Of a DNA stretch of 64,000 nucleotides, positions 31,087 through 58,756 are shown piece after piece. The translations under genes were made by a program, and so were the position numbers. Origin of the DNA: a virus; the IMG/VR virus record IMGVR_UViG_3300050505_000066, positions 1,017-65,016 of that record. One strand, 5' to 3'. Every line of letters starts with the position of its first letter. The stretch's first letter is position 1. The notes under the pieces are model-generated. The model was not told the origin of the DNA. It saw only the letters and a program-made list of their open reading frames with translations, and made no database searches.

Positions 31087-31581
31087 ATGGAGAATCTAAA
31101 ACCCGCATATTGGTCTTCATATCCAAGTAGCTGTGGTCTCTCAGCCCTTGCAGCTGTTACAGGATTAGATACTAATAAGATTCTCAAGGATGTTCGAAAA
31201 TTTGATAAATATGTATGTACCGAAGGATATGGAATGTTCATGGAAGATGCCGCTCGATTCCTTTATAAAAAAGGATACAAAATCTCGGTCCTTCATGAAG
31301 GCAAAGTCAGTACAATTGCAGAAAGAATCAAAGAAAAGAAAGCAGTTCTTGCTATTCGAGTCGATCCAAACCTTAAACTTCCACCAGGGCAAACCGTTCA
31401 CGCTATTGCAGTTGGAAACAATCAGATTTGTGAAAACAATTGGGTATTTCCAACTCCAATTGAACCTTGGCTTAAATACAATCCTTGGAAATCTGAAAAA
31501 GTGATAGCTGGTATCATTATTGAAGATGAACCAAATCCAATCAGACGAATTCTCAACAACATCTTCGGTATCGGACGATAG
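31087..31581 (+). CDS. Papain-like (C39-type) cysteine peptidase-like protein
   Basis: 'SSCGLSALAAV' and 'HAIAV' catalytic-dyad pattern. Confidence 0.55.
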   Translation: MENLKPAYWSSYPSSCGLSALAAVTGLDTNKILKDVRKFDKYVCTEGYGMFMEDAARFLYKKGYKISVLHEGKVSTIAERIKEKKAVLAIRVDPNLKLPPGQTVHAIAVGNNQICENNWVFPTPIEPWLKYNPWKSEKVIAGIIIEDEPNPIRRILNNIFGIGR

Positions 31582-31644
31582 CTCAATGGTTTAGAGCACG
31601 TGTCTTATAAACACGCGATCCAGGTTCAATTCCTGGTCGTCCTA
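31572..31644 (+). tRNA. tRNA-Ile (anticodon UAU), no encoded CCA
   Basis: GCTC/GAGC D-stem, CGTGT-CT TAT AA-ACACG anticodon arm, CCAGG-TTCAATT-CCTGG T-arm; C1:U72 mismatch. Confidence 0.88.
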
Positions 31645-31652
31645 TTTCTCAC

Positions 31653-31683
31653 TTGACACCCCGCGAGGTAACTATGTTACAAT
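31653..31683 (+). promoter_or_regulatory. Sigma70-type promoter
   Basis: TTGACA, 19-nt spacer, extended -10 TGnTACAAT. Confidence 0.55.
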
Positions 31684-31704
31684 TCTCTTTCCTCAGGAGC
31701 CACC

Positions 31705-32136
31705 ATGTATCAAATGAACGAAGCTGAAAAAGAGCTTGTAGTTGCTTTGAGATCAGGGAAATATCAGCAAGGCATAAATTGTTTAAGACCAACTGAAAAT
31801 AGTTTTTGTTGTCTTGGTGTTGCTTGTGATATTTTCCTTCCAGGTTATTGGTCTGTTGAAAATCATAATGGTCACATGGCATGGTATTCAAAAAATACAC
31901 AAGGCTCAGTTTTACCATATGATGTTGTAGTAAAATTAAAATGGTACGATGAACAAGGAACTACAACTATTCCAGTAAATAGAGATGATCTAGATTCTAT
32001 GGGAAGTGATTTTTATGATTTAGCTACATTAAATGATTCAGGTTTTACATTTAATCAAATTGCTGATATCATTGAAGCAGGGCTTGTTTGTCATGACGAT
32101 GAAGAATACGCTTTATTGGAGGAAAAAGATGTCTAA
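31705..32136 (+). CDS. Conserved phage hypothetical protein
   Basis: 'ALRSGKYQQG...FCCLGVACD...LND.G.TFNQIAD' motif family common in phages. Confidence 0.7.
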   Translation: MYQMNEAEKELVVALRSGKYQQGINCLRPTENSFCCLGVACDIFLPGYWSVENHNGHMAWYSKNTQGSVLPYDVVVKLKWYDEQGTTTIPVNRDDLDSMGSDFYDLATLNDSGFTFNQIADIIEAGLVCHDDEEYALLEEKDV

Positions 32137-33325
32137 AATCCGCTGGTTTTGTGAACAACCAGAAAAAGACGCTATTCTCCAAGTTTACGATACTGCATCC
32201 ATGCCTTTCGTTCACGGTGTTGCTGTTATGCCTGACTGTCACTATGGTCGAGGTTCTACCGTGGGAACCGTAGTAGCTACAAAAGGGGCTATCATGCCCG
32301 CCTGTGTGGGGGTTGATATTGGATGTGGGATGATTGCCCTTGAAACAAATCTCACTCTTAAAGATATTAAGCCTTTTCTTTCAGATATTCGAAAAGGAAT
32401 TGAAAGACGAATTCCAACAGGGATTGGGAATTATGGAATGAATTCCAACCTTTCTGAAAGTGCAAGACCACGAATTGAAAAACTTGAAGACTTAAATGAA
32501 AAAGACGGTAAAAATAGAGGAGATTTTGATAAAAACTGGAGAAATGCTCTCGGAAGTCTCGGAGGGGGAAATCATTTTATTGAGATTTGTTTAAATCAAT
32601 ATGAAGCAAATCTTGACGAAACTCCAGTTTGGGTAATTCTCCACTCTGGCTCTCGTGGTGTTGGAAATAGAATTGGAACTTTTTGGACACGATTTGCTCA
32701 AAATCTAGCTAAGAAATATTATTATAACTCATTTCTTCCAAATCCCGATCTCGCATATCTCGTGGAAAAGAGCGAGGAATTCTGGTTCTACATGAAAGAC
32801 CTATTTTGGGCACAAGAATTCGCTCGTCTCAATCGCGAGGAAATGATGGACAGGGTAATCCAAGAACTGACTCACACTGTCTGTAAGACTACTACATCAG
32901 AGTACAACATTCAAGTTCAAAGAATCAATTGTCATCACAATTTTGTTCAGAAGGAAAATTACAGTGGACAAAATTATTGGATCACAAGAAAAGGAGCCAT
33001 TGAAGCAAAAGAAGGGATGTTGGCTCTCATCCCCGGTTCAATGGGAACCCCTTCATACGTTGTTAAAGGACTTGGAAACGAAGGAGCCTTCAATAGTGCC
33101 CCTCACGGTGCGGGAAGGAAAATGAGTCGTGGTAAAGCAAGAAAGATGTTTACTCTCGCCAATCTACAAGACAAGATGCAAGGAATTGAATCAAGGCTCA
33201 GAACTGAGATTCTTGATGAACACCCTGAGGCATACAAAGATATTAACCAAGTTATGGAAGAAGCAAAAACACTTGTCGAACCAGTTCACAAATTAGTGCA
33301 AGTGATTAATGTGAAGGGAGATTAA
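32129..33325 (+). CDS. rtcB: RNA 2',3'-cyclic phosphate/3'-phosphate--5'-OH ligase RtcB
   Basis: 'MPDCHYG', 'VGVDIGCG', 'GGGNHFIE', 'HSGSRG', 'HHN', 'HGAGR', 'DEHPEAYK'; start ATG 32129 with GGAGG RBS. Confidence 0.95.
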   Translation: MSKIRWFCEQPEKDAILQVYDTASMPFVHGVAVMPDCHYGRGSTVGTVVATKGAIMPACVGVDIGCGMIALETNLTLKDIKPFLSDIRKGIERRIPTGIGNYGMNSNLSESARPRIEKLEDLNEKDGKNRGDFDKNWRNALGSLGGGNHFIEICLNQYEANLDETPVWVILHSGSRGVGNRIGTFWTRFAQNLAKKYYYNSFLPNPDLAYLVEKSEEFWFYMKDLFWAQEFARLNREEMMDRVIQELTHTVCKTTTSEYNIQVQRINCHHNFVQKENYSGQNYWITRKGAIEAKEGMLALIPGSMGTPSYVVKGLGNEGAFNSAPHGAGRKMSRGKARKMFTLANLQDKMQGIESRLRTEILDEHPEAYKDINQVMEEAKTLVEPVHKLVQVINVKGD

Positions 33326-55951: not shown

Positions 55952-55956
55952 CATTA

Positions 55957-56049
55957 AGTTGGTGTCTGAAAAGACCACTGAGTCAATCACATGGCCCCAA
56001 GGACAAGAAATTACAGGGGGAGTGCCTGGAAGTTGCACCAGGACCAACT
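55957..56049 (+). ncRNA. Candidate structured RNA with a perfect four-way junction
   Basis: AGTTGGT/ACCAACT, GTC/GAC, CACT/AGTG and CCTGG/CCAGG abut with no linker nucleotides. Confidence 0.55.
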
Positions 56050-56231
56050 AATTAATTATGGAAAAAGAAATAACTGGATATGTGGCTTGGGATGATGGAA
56101 ATTGGAAATTAGTTTTAAAATGTCCTTGTACATGTTGGTATTGTTTATGTACTAGAGAAGGACATTGTGGAAAAAATAAATGTGATAAACAAAAATTTCA
56201 TCCAGAAGATGAAACACGGAGAAAATAATGA

Positions 56232-57869
56232 ATGGAATCAATGTCATTTTTCGCACAAACAATCATGGAACAAAAGTATAGCCACACACGAACAAATGGT
56301 GAGAAAGAACAATGGCACCACATAGCACGTCGAGTAGCGCGACATGTTATGGGTGCCATTAACGCCTCTGATGAACTTGTCAAAGAGATTGCGGAGATAA
56401 TTGAACAACGAAAATTTATTCCTGGGGGTAGATATCTAGCTGCCTCGGGCAGGCAGTATCATCAAACACAGAATTGTATCCTTCTCAAGGCCGAGGATTC
56501 ACGAGAAGGATGGGCTGATATAATGCAGAAGTCCACTTTAGCTCTTATGACAGGAGCAGGGATAGGATGCGATTACTCAGATATCCGACCCGAGAATAAA
56601 CCAATTAGAAAAACGGGTGGAGTCTCTACAGGCCCTATTGCCCTTATGCAAATGGTTAACGAAGCTGGTCGAGGCATCATGCAGGGGGGTTCACGTCGCT
56701 CAGCAATTTGGGCGGGACTTAGTTGGAAGCATGCGGATATTCAAAAATTCATCACATTAAAAAATTGGATTCCAGAAGTTCGGGAGATGAAGGAAAAGGA
56801 TTTTAATTTCCCGGCAACAATGGATGGAACAAATATCTCAGTTATTCTTGATGATGAATTTTTCAAGGCTTTTCATGATGATAAAAATCCTTTAAACTCT
56901 CATGCTCAATCTGTTTATTGGTCTACTCTTCGTCAGATGTTAAAAACCGCTGAACCAGGATTTAGTATTGATATAGGGAAAAATAAGGGAGAAACATTAA
57001 GGAATGCGTGTACTGAAGTATCTTCAGGAGATGATAGTGATATTTGTAATCTTGGTTCTATTAATTTGGCTAGGATCACATCCTTAGAAGAAATGAAGAA
57101 AGTTGTAAATCTTGCGACTGCTTTTCTTACAGCTGGAACTGTTTATAGTGATGTTCCATATTCAAAACTAGATCAGATTAGGAATAAGAATAGACGCCTT
57201 GGTCTTGGTCTTATGGGTCTTCATGAATGGCTTCTTGTTAGAGATGAAAAATATGGATTTAATGAAGACCTTCAAAAATATTTAGAAATTTATGGAGATA
57301 GTACACATTACGCACATGAATGGCAAGATAAGTGGGACCTTTCAAGATCAATCAAAACAAGAGCAATTGCACCGACTGGGACTATTGGGATCATTGGTGA
57401 AACTACAACAGGAATTGAACCAATTTTCTGTGTAGCATTTAAAAGACGATATCTTAAATATCACACCTGGAATTATCAATATGTTATTGATCCAACAGCT
57501 AAAAGATTAATTGAAAATGGTATTCATTCAGATTCTATTGAAGACGCTTATGTTCTCGCAAGTGATGTAGAACGTCGAGTTGCATTTCAATCATGGGTTC
57601 AGAAATATGTAGACCATGCAATTTCTTCTACGATCAATCTTCCAGCATGGGGAAGTGAATTGAATAACGATGGAACTGTTTCTAAATTTGGTAATATGCT
57701 TATCAATTATCTTCCTAATCTACGCGGTTTTACAGTGTATCCTGATGGAGGACGAGGAGGACAACCATTGACACCCGTGAAGTATAGTGTAGCCGTGAAT
57801 CATGCAGATAAAGTGTTTGAAGAGATTAATGTATGTGATATAACTAAAGGTGGTAGCTGTGGAAGTTAA
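56232..57869 (+). CDS. nrdJ: Ribonucleotide reductase, probably class II (AdoCbl-dependent)
   Basis: 'NACTE' catalytic motif, 'CNLGSINL', 'APTGT', 'ISSTINLP', C-terminal Cys pair; no nrdB gene in the window. Confidence 0.85.
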   Translation: MESMSFFAQTIMEQKYSHTRTNGEKEQWHHIARRVARHVMGAINASDELVKEIAEIIEQRKFIPGGRYLAASGRQYHQTQNCILLKAEDSREGWADIMQKSTLALMTGAGIGCDYSDIRPENKPIRKTGGVSTGPIALMQMVNEAGRGIMQGGSRRSAIWAGLSWKHADIQKFITLKNWIPEVREMKEKDFNFPATMDGTNISVILDDEFFKAFHDDKNPLNSHAQSVYWSTLRQMLKTAEPGFSIDIGKNKGETLRNACTEVSSGDDSDICNLGSINLARITSLEEMKKVVNLATAFLTAGTVYSDVPYSKLDQIRNKNRRLGLGLMGLHEWLLVRDEKYGFNEDLQKYLEIYGDSTHYAHEWQDKWDLSRSIKTRAIAPTGTIGIIGETTTGIEPIFCVAFKRRYLKYHTWNYQYVIDPTAKRLIENGIHSDSIEDAYVLASDVERRVAFQSWVQKYVDHAISSTINLPAWGSELNNDGTVSKFGNMLINYLPNLRGFTVYPDGGRGGQPLTPVKYSVAVNHADKVFEEINVCDITKGGSCGS

Positions 57870-58016: not shown

Positions 58017-58089
58017 GCCCGATTGGTGTAATTGGTAAACACAATAGACTTAGACTCTATTTTTGAGGGTTCGAATCCTTCATTGGGCA
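58017..58089 (+). tRNA. tRNA-Leu (UAG) with short variable loop and A37
   Basis: GCCCGAT/ATTGGGC, ATAGA-CT TAG AC-TCTAT, T-loop TTCGAAT. Confidence 0.88.
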
Positions 58090-58093
58090 CTTT

Positions 58094-58166
58094 TCCCTGG
58101 TAGTTTAAGTAAAACATCTGTCTCCAAAACAGAAAGATGTTGGTTCAAATCCAGCCTGGGGAGCCA
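58094..58166 (+). tRNA. tRNA-Trp (CCA), encoded CCA end
   Basis: TCTGT-CT CCA AA-ACAGA; G73; T-loop TTCAAAT. Confidence 0.88.
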
Positions 58167-58171
58167 TTTTA

Positions 58172-58244
58172 TGCGGTCAGATGCTCCGGGTGGCATACAA
58201 GCCTCATAAGCTTGATTCAGTGGGTTCGACTCCCACGACCGCTA
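58172..58244 (+). tRNA. tRNA with CAU anticodon (Met or Ile2), U1:U72 mismatch
   Basis: CAAGC-CT CAT AA-GCTTG; GTGGG-TTCGACT-CCCAC; lacks the three G-C pairs of initiator tRNAs. Confidence 0.85.
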
Positions 58245-58248
58245 CATT

Positions 58249-58323
58249 GTGACTGTAGCTTAAAGCCAAAGCCCCTGATTGTGAATCAGGTGAATGTGGA
58301 TGCGAGAACCACCAGTCACCCCA
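58249..58323 (+). tRNA. tRNA-His (GUG), C73, no encoded G-1, atypical T-loop
   Basis: GTGACTG/CAGTCAC, CCTGA-TT GTG AA-TCAGG, encoded CCA. Confidence 0.8.
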
Positions 58324-58325
58324 TA

Positions 58326-58415
58326 ATCTAGCGTGACCGTTCGATTCGGTTGGGTGGAATACCGGGGTTCGATTCCCTGCTTGAACTGGTGTTGGCGCTA
58401 GATAAAGAACACCGG
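58326..58415 (+). ncRNA. Candidate tRNA-elbow-mimic / Y-RNA-like RNA
   Basis: ATCTAGCG/CGCTAGAT closing stem, two TTCGATT T-loop motifs, possible pseudoknot CTGGTGTT/AACACCGG. Confidence 0.6.
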
Positions 58416-58467
58416 CCTAATTACGTTCTAATCCAAATGGGTCATTCCCTACGTGATGAAAGCCAAT

Positions 58468-58543
58468 CCGTCTATAGTTCAGTGAATAGAACGCTTGGCT
58501 ACGAACCAAGAGGACGGGGGTTTAAATCCCTCTAGACGGTCCA
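58468..58543 (+). tRNA. tRNA-Arg (ACG), encoded CCA
   Basis: CCGTCTA/TAGACGG, CTTGG-CT ACG AA-CCAAG; T-loop TTTAAAT. Confidence 0.9.
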
Positions 58544-58546
58544 TTT

Positions 58547-58623
58547 CAGAGAGTAGCTCAGCCCGGTAGAGTTCTCGGCCTGGAACCGAGATGTCGCAGG
58601 TTCGAATCCTGCCTCTCTGACCA
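58547..58623 (+). tRNA. tRNA-Pro (UGG) with C33 and A37, encoded CCA
   Basis: C1-G72/A73, CTCGG-CC TGG AA-CCGAG. Confidence 0.9.
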
Positions 58624-58633
58624 CACAAAGAGG

Positions 58634-58707
58634 CTCTAAACGCGCAACGAGCAGTCTGAGGCACGGCCTTGGAGGAAGGCGGATGCGGCGGCTAGGATGG
58701 TTTAGAG
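58634..58707 (+). ncRNA. Candidate GC-rich rod-like RNA
   Basis: CTCTAAAC/GTTTAGAG, AGTC/GGCT, GCA/TGC, GCCTT/AAGGC. Confidence 0.45.
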
Positions 58708-58711
58708 TAAT

Positions 58712-58756
58712 AAAAAAGCCCCGAAGGATTAAGTTCCCTCGGGGCTTCTCTTTTTC
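58712..58756. terminator. Bidirectional intrinsic terminator at the convergence of the early and late blocks
   Basis: AAAAAA-GCCCCGA...TCGGGGC-TTCTCTTTTT. Confidence 0.85.

What the first reader, a model, noticed from the sequence alone, without database searches (positions are those of the whole stretch)
58326..58467. Double T-loop, Y-RNA-like element inside the tRNA array
Between tRNA-His and tRNA-Arg the sequence folds either as an 8-bp stem enclosing two TTCGATT T-loop hairpins, or as a long bulged rod (GTTCGA/TTGAAC, reminiscent of the GUCCGA/UUGAC Ro-binding helix) capped by a GG-containing D-like hairpin and a T hairpin, i.e. a tRNA elbow without anticodon. CTGGTGTT/AACACCGG adds a potential pseudoknot. 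Bacterial Y RNAs mimic tRNA and are linked to Ro60 and RtcB; this phage has RtcB but no Ro60 in the window, and the arm order differs from YrlA. It is a candidate tRNA-mimic decoy or a guide for RNA repair.
Basis: partly seen in the sequence, partly recalled or inferred. Interest (0 to 1): 0.7.

Follow-up and report, generated by a model that had tools for sequence, protein, structure and literature searches.

The report
tRNA-derived double T-arm spacer in phage
The 144-base gap in this soil phage's tRNA gene row really holds two perfect copies of the tRNA "T-arm" hairpin inside a tRNA-sized stem. It is not a Y RNA, it has no relatives to test it against, and it is about equally likely to be leftover tRNA gene debris or a small non-decoding tRNA look-alike.

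Summary
The sequence features are real. A 9-bp stem (58326-58334/58395-58403) starts 3 nt after tRNA-His and closes a 78-nt, tRNA-sized unit. This unit holds two canonical T-arm hairpins (58335-58351 and 58363-58379). A T-arm scan of the whole 64-kb window finds only the tRNAs' T-arms plus these two. The remaining 64 nt carry two decayed T-loop copies.

The Y-RNA reading fails: there is no YrlA or tRNA model hit in the gap, no Ro60 gene and no GNCGAA motif, and RtcB lies 25 kb away.

No homologue exists in IMG/VR, metagenomes, GTDB genomes or cultured phages. Relatives found through the neighbouring RNR gene lack the whole tRNA array, so covariation cannot be tested. Folding energy is unremarkable (z -0.65 for the gap, -1.5 for the unit), and several pairings compete.

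Conserved multi-T-arm RNAs do exist in other phage tRNA arrays. I confirmed one "triple T-arm" family by covariation, but this element does not score as a member.

Best reading (0.5): a patchwork of tRNA gene remnants, transcribed and removed as a spacer. Main rival (0.35): a functional anticodon-less tRNA mimic.

The scan has earlier noted double T-arm and anticodon-less tRNA mimics on other phage DNA (e1-4038614 and others).

The parts
58249..58323 (+). tRNA-His(GTG) with encoded CCA; upstream boundary of the element
   Evidence: ARAGORN; Rfam tRNA 49.6 bits
58326..58334 (+). 5' strand of the closing stem (ATCTAGCGT). It starts 3 nt after the CCA of tRNA-His and runs straight into H1 with no linker.
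   Evidence: Sequence; paired with p 0.89-1.0 in the ensemble
58335..58351 (+). H1: T-arm-type hairpin GACCG-TTCGATT-CGGTT (5 bp, 7-nt T-loop, G-C closing pair)
   Evidence: one of two non-tRNA T-arm hits in 64 kb
58352..58362 (+). GG-rich linker GGGTGGAATAC. It can form a 4-bp mini-hairpin (58353-58363). GGAATAC also reads as the anticodon-stem 3' strand plus variable loop of an ordinary tRNA.
   Evidence: Energy of that drawing; 92.6% match of 58356-58381 to Microbacterium phage tRNA-Thr/Cys
58363..58379 (+). H2: T-arm-type hairpin CGGGG-TTCGATT-CCCTG
   Evidence: repeat families D1-D3
58380..58386 (+). CTTGAAC. It sits where the acceptor 3' strand of the tRNA that donated H2 would lie. It is complementary (with G-U) to GTTCGA of both T-loops, so it competes with H1 and H2.
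   Evidence: p 0.6 with T-loop 1, p 0.3 with T-loop 2
58386..58415 (+). It is mutually exclusive with the closing stem.
   Evidence: Sequence; the closing stem it excludes has p about 1 in the ensemble; aligned by model R2 to stem 5 of the triple T-arm family, but at a non-discriminating score
58395..58403 (+). 3' strand of the closing stem (GCGCTAGAT). No CCA follows it.
58420..58457 (+). 7-bp stem ATTACGT/ACGTGAT enclosing the decayed T-loop copies. A stem of this size is expected by chance in 64 nt.
   Evidence: chance estimate is my own arithmetic
58425..58434 (+). Degenerate T-loop GTTCTAATCC (9 of 10 bases match GTTCGAATCC) without a proper stem
   Evidence: Local alignment to tRNA-Leu and tRNA-Pro T-arms
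58439..58449 (+). Degenerate T-arm GGGTCATTCCC (3-bp stem, 5-nt loop). Together with the following ACGTGA it repeats ATTCCCTGCTTGA of H2, 72 nt upstream.
   Evidence: Repeat D5
58468..58543 (+). tRNA-Arg(ACG); downstream boundary. RNase P cleavage here would free the 3' end of the spacer.
   Evidence: the processing step is inferred

Best explanation
The gap is a patchwork of tRNA gene remnants with no decoding role. It has two parts.

Unit X (58326-58403) keeps an acceptor-type stem in the register of the array, but its interior is a mosaic of the 3' portions of tRNA genes: T-arm H1, then a linker that reads as a variable loop, then T-arm H2 and an acceptor-3'-like strand. Unit Y (58404-58467) is older debris with two decayed T-loops.

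Such mosaics would arise by deletion and illegitimate recombination between the near-identical T-loop sequences of neighbouring tRNA genes.

The stretch is transcribed with the array. It is then released as a spacer by RNase P cutting at the 5' end of tRNA-Arg and by 3' processing after the CCA of tRNA-His (an AU-rich UAAU follows it). It is presumably degraded afterwards, and its T-hairpins might at most be bound in passing by T-arm enzymes.

Shown: the sequence anatomy. Inferred: transcription, processing and the recombinational origin.
For: 1. There is no anticodon arm and no tRNA call by ARAGORN or Infernal, even with relaxed, intron and mitochondrial settings.
2. 58356-58381 matches the variable loop plus T-arm of ordinary phage tRNA-Thr/Cys at 92.6%. 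It is followed by 7 nt plus 1 nt exactly where an acceptor 3' strand and discriminator would lie. The H2 block therefore looks like a plain 3' tRNA fragment and not a purpose-built module.
3. Two further T-loop copies in different states of decay lie downstream: GTTCTAATCC, and GGGTCATTCCC repeated at a 72-nt offset. This indicates turnover in this slot.
4. Folding energy is not above shuffled controls, and there are several mutually exclusive pairings.
5. The element fits none of the conserved multi-T-arm architectures. R1 gives 15.3 bits, from the two T-arms only. None of about 120 double-T-loop loci has its layout. Similarity of the flanking motifs is not significant, p 0.10 and 0.66.
6. 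It has no CCA or tRNA-like 3' end.
Against: 1. All three helices of unit X are perfect: 19 pairs, no mismatch and only G-U wobbles. Both T-loops are fully canonical, whereas unit Y next to it is visibly decayed. That contrast would be expected if X were under selection or very young.
2. The closing stem is in register with the array, and X is exactly tRNA-sized. Random rearrangement does not predict this.
3. Each T-arm is followed by a GG-containing segment of the kind that pairs with a T-loop in tRNA.
4. Conserved non-decoding multi-T-arm RNAs do exist in other phage tRNA arrays, so the design has precedent.
5. The recombination history is inferred; no intermediate form was found.
Confidence: 0.5

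Rival explanations
1. Unit X is a functional, non-decoding tRNA look-alike. It is cut from the array transcript by the tRNA-processing enzymes. It folds into a closing stem stacked on T-arm H1 (a 14-bp 'minihelix' with the long excursion on the 3' strand instead of the 5' strand), plus a second T-arm. Each T-loop would be docked on a neighbouring GG segment. It would act by occupying proteins that recognise the T-arm or elbow of tRNA, for example a host tRNA-targeting defence nuclease, alongside the phage's tRNA set and RtcB repair ligase.
For: Two canonical T-arms are the only non-tRNA T-arm hits in 64 kb. The perfect 9-bp stem is in array register and encloses a tRNA-sized 78 nt. X is intact while Y is decayed. 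The array is otherwise tightly packed, with 3-5 nt spacers. The phage encodes RtcB. A conserved triple T-arm family with strong covariation sits in other phage tRNA arrays, which shows the design principle is used. T4 rnaC/rnaD are proven stable non-tRNA RNAs in a phage tRNA cluster.
Against: It is a singleton with no covariation test possible. Stability is unremarkable and TTGAAC competes with both T-hairpins. It has no tRNA-like 3' end. Its architecture matches no conserved family. The H2 block looks like an unmodified tRNA fragment. Non-coding stretches of 100 nt or more are common in this genome, about 20 by a rough ORF tiling. Retaining 144 nt is therefore not in itself evidence of selection.
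Confidence: 0.35
2. The whole gap, running into the end of tRNA-His, is a divergent or degenerating member of the 'triple T-arm' tRNA-like RNA family found in other phage tRNA arrays. In that reading H1 is T1, H2 is T2, CTGGTGTT/AACACCGG is stem 5, GTTCTAATC is a decayed T3, and the acceptor stem has been lost.
For: The broadened model R2 aligns 58316-58445 end to end at 27.6 bits, with all elements in the family's order. By eye, AGCGTGA lies just 5' of T1 (family: AGCGTAG), and CTTGAAC..TGGTG..GCG..AAAG follows T2 (family: CTTGACCATGGTGGCGAAAAG).
Against: R2 is promiscuous. It gives about 70 hits of 27.6 bits or more in 870 kb of tRNA-rich phage DNA, because adjacent tRNAs mimic the model. 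The specific model R1 gives only 15.3 bits over the two T-arms, against 123-165 bits for members and 58-66 bits for remote members. Permutation tests of the two flanking motif blocks give p 0.10 and 0.66. The proposed acceptor stem would need the 3' end of tRNA-His.
Confidence: 0.1
3. It is a bacterial-type Y RNA (YrlA-like) or a guide RNA working with Ro60 or RtcB.
For: It has T-arm-like hairpins and GTTCGA/TTGAAC forms a helix. RtcB is present in the genome.
Against: There is no YrlA hit in the gap at E<=10. There is no TROVE/Ro60 gene anywhere in the 65.6-kb genome. There is no GNCGAA motif (criterion from PMC4201824). There is no D-arm. RtcB is about 25 kb away.
Confidence: 0.02

Closest known systems
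Canonical tRNA genes (Rfam RF00005) and their T-arm
   Same: Both hairpins have the full T-arm signature: a 5-bp stem, a G53-C61 closing pair and a TTCGATT loop. The closing stem is 7-9 bp, in array register, and the unit is 78 nt. The H2 flank matches the variable loop of real tRNAs.
   Different: There is no anticodon arm, no D-arm and no CCA. The T-arm adjoins the 5' strand of the closing stem and not the 3' strand. It is not detected by ARAGORN or Infernal.
Phage T4 rnaC (species 1) and rnaD (species 2) stable RNAs
   Same: They are non-tRNA RNAs of 119-139 nt encoded inside a phage tRNA cluster on the tRNA strand. rnaC carries a T-arm preceded by AATAAC, locally similar to AATACC plus H2 here (z 2.4).
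   Different: There is no similarity outside the T-arm, and none to rnaD. The T4 RNAs are annotated in the record as small stable RNAs; this element has no expression data. rnaC has one clear T-arm near its 3' end, not two inside a closing stem.
Unnamed 'triple T-arm' tRNA-like RNA family of uncultured phages (alignment A1, model R1; loci L086, L188-L190, L194, L195, L197-L199; remote members L079, L112)
   Same: It sits in or beside phage tRNA arrays. It contains a module of T-arm, small hairpin, T-arm with identical TTCGATT loops. It has no anticodon loop and is missed by Rfam 15 and ARAGORN.
   Different: The family has a 6-7 bp acceptor stem flush with a third T-arm, and conserved ACCAYGGTGGCGAA. 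The element here lacks both. It scores 15.3 bits against 123-165 bits for members, and motif similarity is not significant.
YrlA / bacterial and phage Y RNAs (Rfam RF02553; Chen et al. 2014, PMC4201824)
   Same: Both are tRNA-derived non-decoding RNAs with a T-arm. Some occur in phages, and some loci are linked to RtcB.
   Different: This element has no Ro60 gene nearby, no GNCGAA motif, no D-arm, a different arm order and no model hit.

Membership tests
tRNA (RF00005) | Cloverleaf with an anticodon arm; Infernal score at or above 29 bits, or an ARAGORN call | tested here: not met
   No hit in 58324-58467 at the gathering score or at E<=10. ARAGORN default finds nothing. Relaxed, intron and mitochondrial modes give only implausible drawings.
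tRNA (RF00005) | T-arm: 5-bp stem, G53-C61 closing pair, 7-nt T-loop TTCRANN | tested here: met
   H1 and H2 both pass. They are the only non-tRNA hits in 64 kb.
tRNA (RF00005) | 7-bp acceptor stem stacked on the T-arm through the 3' strand, followed by a discriminator and CCA (encoded or added) | tested here: not met
   The closing stem is continuous with H1 through the 5' strand. H2 is 15-16 nt from the 3' strand. TAAAG follows the stem, with no CCA.
YrlA / Y RNA (RF02553) | Covariance-model match (gathering score 69 bits) | tested here: not met
   The only YrlA hit in the region is 15 bits over true tRNAs at 58509-58575. Nothing appears in the gap, even when the gap is searched alone at E<=10.
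YrlA / Y RNA (RF02553) | Encoded within about 4 kb of a Ro60 (TROVE) gene on the same strand (PMC4201824) | tested here: not met
   No TROVE match anywhere in the 65.6-kb genome; the positive controls responded.
YrlA / Y RNA (RF02553) | GNCGAAN0-1G motif near the 5' end, and T-like plus D-like stem-loops flanking an acceptor-like stem-loop (PMC4201824) | tested here: not met
   No CGAA in the gap. It has two T-type loops and no D-arm.
Triple T-arm phage RNA family (model R1) | Full-length match: acceptor stem, T1, hairpin, T2, stem 5, T3 flush with the acceptor 3' strand | tested here: not met
   R1 gives 15.3 bits over model positions 22-72 only, with the middle hairpin unmatched. Members score 123-165 bits and remote members 58-66 bits.
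Triple T-arm phage RNA family (model R2, broadened) | Score above the background of tRNA-rich DNA | tested here: inconclusive
   27.6 bits, full length. However, about 70 unrelated sites in 870 kb of tRNA arrays score as high or higher. Motif blocks give p 0.10 and 0.66.
T4 rnaC/rnaD-type stable RNAs of phage tRNA clusters | Non-tRNA RNA encoded within the tRNA cluster on the same strand | tested here: met
   The gap lies between tRNA-His and tRNA-Arg on the + strand. T4 layout.
T4 rnaC/rnaD-type stable RNAs of phage tRNA clusters | Accumulates as a discrete stable RNA | not testable with these tools
   Only two DNA runs hold the sequence and no RNA run does.

The most novel reading that the evidence does not exclude
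Unit X is a working 'mirror-topology' tRNA mimic. It would be a 14-bp minihelix capped by a T-loop whose long excursion leaves from the 3' strand and carries a second T-arm, giving an RNA with two tRNA-elbow-like surfaces and no anticodon. It would serve as a decoy or sponge for a host factor that grips the tRNA elbow or T-arm, such as a tRNA-cleaving defence nuclease. This would complement the phage's own tRNA set and its RtcB repair ligase. It would be one more independent invention in the emerging class of non-decoding tRNA look-alikes in phage tRNA arrays.
Probability: 0.15. Interest if true: 0.65.

Novelty: new member of a known kind. Interest (0 to 1): 0.3.

Why it matters
Phage tRNA clusters have long been known to hide non-tRNA RNAs of unknown role, such as T4 rnaC and rnaD.

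If this element is functional, it adds a new layout to that class. It sits in a phage that also carries RNA-repair enzymes, which points to conflict over host tRNA cleavage.

If it is debris, it is a clear snapshot of how tRNA arrays turn over by recombination at their shared T-loop sequence. It is also a caution that perfect T-arm hairpins alone do not make an RNA gene. Because it is a singleton, the case cannot be settled from sequence.

Tried and rejected
1. Homologue hunts all came back empty.
- RNR-anchored relatives in IMG/VR (9 loci) and metagenomes (23 loci), at most 72% identity, carry no tRNA array or T-loops after RNR.
- Relatives of the 170-aa neighbouring protein are only 27-56% identical and I did not examine those loci further.
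- Exact or degenerate pattern scans gave no hits for H2+TTGAAC, for the odd tRNA-His T-arm and for the H1-linker-H2 pattern in viral contigs.
- A scan of the GTDB genome set for H2+TTGAAC gave no hits.
- BLAST against cultured phages gave T-arm-level matches only. The closest cultured DNA polymerase is at most 24% identical.

2. Sequencing runs: only two rhizosphere DNA runs hold the stretch, probably the source samples. No RNA holder is listed, and the contigs show no variants.

3. attP or integration scar: no integrase in the genome, and no bacterial tRNA with this 3' end.

4. Hidden tRNA (intron-containing, D-armless or mitochondrial-type): relaxed ARAGORN gives only poor drawings.

5. Duplicate of a neighbouring tRNA: local alignments to the phage's 8 tRNAs do not exceed T-arm similarity, and the 3' half shows no similarity.

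6. Minus-strand RNA: the 78-nt unit folds with z -3.1 on the minus strand. However, its loops are not T-loops and the array is on the + strand, so I did not pursue this.

7. Membership of the triple T-arm family: rejected or inconclusive after a specificity control.

8. Compactness argument: about 20 non-coding stretches of 100 nt or more exist in the window by a rough ORF tiling, so 144 nt is not unusual genome-wide.

9. mascRNA: 16.5 bits, E 0.4 on the gap alone, so not significant.

10. The energy and pairing probabilities for CTGGTGTT/AACACCGG were computed one base out of register, so they are not used.

Full report
CONTEXT. The window is nearly all of a 65.6-kb IMG/VR virus record from rhizosphere metagenomes. 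It has no close cultured relative; the DNA polymerase is at most 24% identical to any cultured phage. At the end of the + strand replication module, just after a ribonucleotide reductase gene (56232-57869), lies a tRNA array. It contains Leu(TAG) 58017-58090, Trp 58094-58166, Met 58172-58245 and His 58249-58323. A 144-nt gap follows, and then Arg(ACG) 58468-58543 and Pro(TGG) 58547-58623. Spacers elsewhere in the array are 3-5 nt. A GC-rich hairpin and a bidirectional terminator (about 58718-58756) follow.

The gap contains a closing stem, ATCTAGCGT (58326-58334) with GCGCTAGAT (58395-58403). Flush against its 5' strand is hairpin H1, GACCG-TTCGATT-CGGTT (58335-58351). Eleven bases later comes H2, CGGGG-TTCGATT-CCCTG (58363-58379). 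Both hairpins carry the complete T-arm signature.

I scanned both strands of the window for a stem of at least 4 bp, a G-C closing pair and a TTYRANN loop. The scan returns nine sites: seven tRNA T-arms plus H1 and H2, and nothing else. The hairpins are therefore tRNA-derived, not chance.

The closing stem begins 3 nt after the CCA of tRNA-His and encloses 78 nt. It occupies one tRNA 'slot' in the register of the array. I estimate that an 8-bp Watson-Crick stem so placed has a chance probability of a few in a thousand.

THE FOLD IS NOT WELL DEFINED.
- Folding energy is ordinary: z -0.65 for the gap and z -1.54 for the 78-nt unit.
- In the predicted ensemble only the closing stem is firm, with p about 1.
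- TTGAAC (58381-58386) pairs with T-loop 1 (p 0.6) or T-loop 2 (p 0.3). This leaves the T-hairpins as minor conformers: H1 at 0.18 and H2 at 0.05.
- The two-T-hairpin drawing, the 'rod' and the minimum-free-energy three-way junction lie within about 4 kcal/mol of each other.
- CTGGTGTT/AACACCGG is mutually exclusive with the closing stem. My probability for it was computed one base out of register and is not used.
- Nearest-neighbour models ignore T-loop tertiary contacts, so these results weaken but do not exclude the T-arm fold.

NOT A tRNA AND NOT A Y RNA. Infernal finds no tRNA, tmRNA-like domain or YrlA in the gap, even when the 144 nt are searched alone at E<=10. The best match is mascRNA at 16.5 bits, E 0.4. 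ARAGORN finds nothing at default settings and only implausible drawings in relaxed, intron or mitochondrial modes.

Chen et al. 2014 (PMC4201824) define YrlA by three features:
- proximity to a Ro60 gene on the same strand;
- a GNCGAAN0-1G motif;
- T-like and D-like stem-loops around an acceptor-like stem.

The genome has no TROVE gene. The gap has no CGAA and no D-arm. RtcB is real (window about 32180-33319), but it lies 25 kb away beside tRNA-Ile(UAU).

NO RELATIVES, SO NO COVARIATION TEST. Thirty-two loci with RNR genes 51-73% identical, from IMG/VR and metagenomes, have no tRNA array after RNR. Pattern scans for the H2-TTGAAC junction, for the unusual tRNA-His T-arm and for the H1-linker-H2 module found nothing in IMG/VR. 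A scan of GTDB genomes for the H2-TTGAAC junction also found nothing. Only two rhizosphere DNA runs hold the sequence, and they show no variants.

SIGNS OF tRNA DEBRIS.
- 58356-58381 matches the variable loop plus T-arm of Microbacterium phage tRNA-Thr/Cys at 92.6%. It is followed by CTTGAAC plus T exactly where an acceptor 3' strand and discriminator would lie. The H2 block therefore reads as an ordinary tRNA 3' fragment of about 35 nt.
- Downstream lies GTTCTAATCC (58425-58434), which matches 9 of 10 bases of the T-loop core.
- Also downstream lies GGGTCATTCCC-T-ACGTGA (58439-58456), a degraded repeat of H2 and its trailer at a 72-nt offset.
- The slot thus holds four T-loop-derived pieces: two intact and two decayed.
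- There is no integrase, so an attP remnant is unlikely.

SIGNS OF SELECTION. All 19 pairs in the three helices of unit X are intact, while the adjacent unit Y is decayed. X is tRNA-sized and in register with the array. Each T-arm is followed by a GG-containing segment.

PRECEDENT IN OTHER PHAGES. A degenerate scan for two T-loops 8-30 nt apart hit more than 118 viral contigs. One recurrent set is a clear family: acceptor stem, T-arm, small TGG-loop hairpin, T-arm, the conserved ACCAYGGTGGCGAA leading into a stem, and a third T-arm flush with the acceptor 3' strand.
- Across nine sequences, 96.9% of cells are paired and 15 of 29 pairs show double changes. None of 500 shuffles, and none of the slid registers, comes near this.
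- Of the five members scanned with Rfam 15, none gets a hit; of the eight scanned with ARAGORN, none is called. In four of the eight loci the family member adjoins tRNA genes.
- Non-decoding multi-T-arm RNAs in phage tRNA arrays therefore exist.

The present element does not join that family.
- Model R1 gives 15.3 bits over the two T-arms only, against 123-165 bits for members and 58-66 bits for remote members.
- A broadened model, R2, aligns 58316-58445 end to end at 27.6 bits. As a control I ran R2 on 870 kb of tRNA-rich phage DNA. About 70 sites scored as high or higher, because adjacent tRNAs imitate the model.
- Permutation tests of the two flanking motif blocks give p 0.10 and 0.66.
- None of about 120 double-T-loop loci has a closing stem flush with the first T-arm as seen here.

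COMPARISON WITH T4. T4 rnaC and rnaD are stable non-tRNA RNAs of 139 and 119 nt in the T4 tRNA cluster. rnaC shares only a T-arm with an AATA-type flank with this element.

VERDICT. The stretch is a tRNA-derived, anticodon-less element. On present evidence I cannot separate two readings: a recombinational patchwork of tRNA remnants that is simply spliced out of the precursor, and a genuine non-decoding tRNA look-alike. I give the null reading (debris) 0.5 because nothing positive shows function. I give the functional mimic 0.35, a degenerate member of the triple T-arm family 0.1, and the Y-RNA idea 0.02.

EARLIER NOTES OF THIS SCAN. The scan's earlier notes describe double T-arm and anticodon-less tRNA mimics in other phages (e1-4038614, e1-5392777, e1-5318434). 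My pattern scan reached the same general picture independently. Those notes are unchecked and were not used as evidence.

Noticed in passing
L195:8003-8130, L189:2309-2456(-), L190:5261-5408(-), L198:4855-5002, L199:10715-10862(-), L194:16-164(-), L188:3118-3249(-), L086:3466-3596; remote: L079:9046-9183(-), L112:2616-2747(-): A conserved 'triple T-arm' tRNA-like RNA family of 128-149 nt in uncultured phages, often inside tRNA clusters. It has an acceptor stem, two internal T-arms separated by a TGG-loop hairpin, the invariant ACCAYGGTGGCGAA, and a third T-arm flush with the acceptor 3' strand. 15 of 29 pairs show compensatory changes. It has no Rfam 15 hit and no ARAGORN call.
   Followed up: yes
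L058:2402-2481(-), L061, L087, L094:6070-6138, L098, L099, L111, L113, L122, L127, L130:1138-1210: A second recurrent RNA of about 95 nt in large phage tRNA arrays. It has a GGGAGAG/CTCTCCC acceptor stem and a normal T-arm. A 5-bp stem capped by a GACG tetraloop sits where the anticodon arm should be; its stem covaries by eye. A T-arm-like hairpin sits in the variable-arm position. ARAGORN does not call it.
   Followed up: partly
window 58624-58717: A GC-rich stretch in a phage that averages about 39% GC. A 9-bp stem (about 58633-58641/58700-58708) encloses a branched interior. It lies between tRNA-Pro and the terminator. Minimum free energy is -28.8, z -2.47. It has no Rfam family and no BLAST relatives.
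   Followed up: partly
window 55953-56057: Directly after the solitary tRNA-Leu(CAA) lies a tRNA-shaped four-way junction. It has an AGTTGGT/ACCAACT stem, a GTCT-GAAA-AGAC hairpin, a central arm and a CCTGG-loop-CCAGG arm flush with the 3' strand. Minimum free energy is -29, z -1.58. This phage may therefore carry more than one tRNA-adjacent odd RNA.
   Followed up: partly
L203:2117-2165 and L204:1345-1400 (uncultured Acidobacteriaceae MAG contigs): Orphan elements of the form GTTCGATTC-(G/A)CAC-GGTGGAAGTC, then a T-arm whose stem covaries between the two genomes, then an acceptor-3'-like strand (with CCA in L204). They lie in ordinary chromosomal context. No tRNA, tmRNA or Rfam call was made.
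   Followed up: partly
L055, L067, L074, L083, L131, L133, L140 (high-GC phage tRNA arrays): Many tRNAs are followed at once by CGAG, 10-15 nt and a further orphan T-arm, sometimes several times per array. This is a repeated 'tRNA plus trailing T-arm' unit of unknown meaning.
   Followed up: no
window 58248-58323: The phage tRNA-His has T, not G, at position -1. It has C73 with an encoded CCA, and an atypical T-loop (TGCGAGA).
   Followed up: no
window 31571-33319: tRNA-Ile(UAU) lies about 530 nt upstream of the RtcB gene on the same strand. No Ro60 gene and no integrase is present anywhere in the genome.
   Followed up: partly
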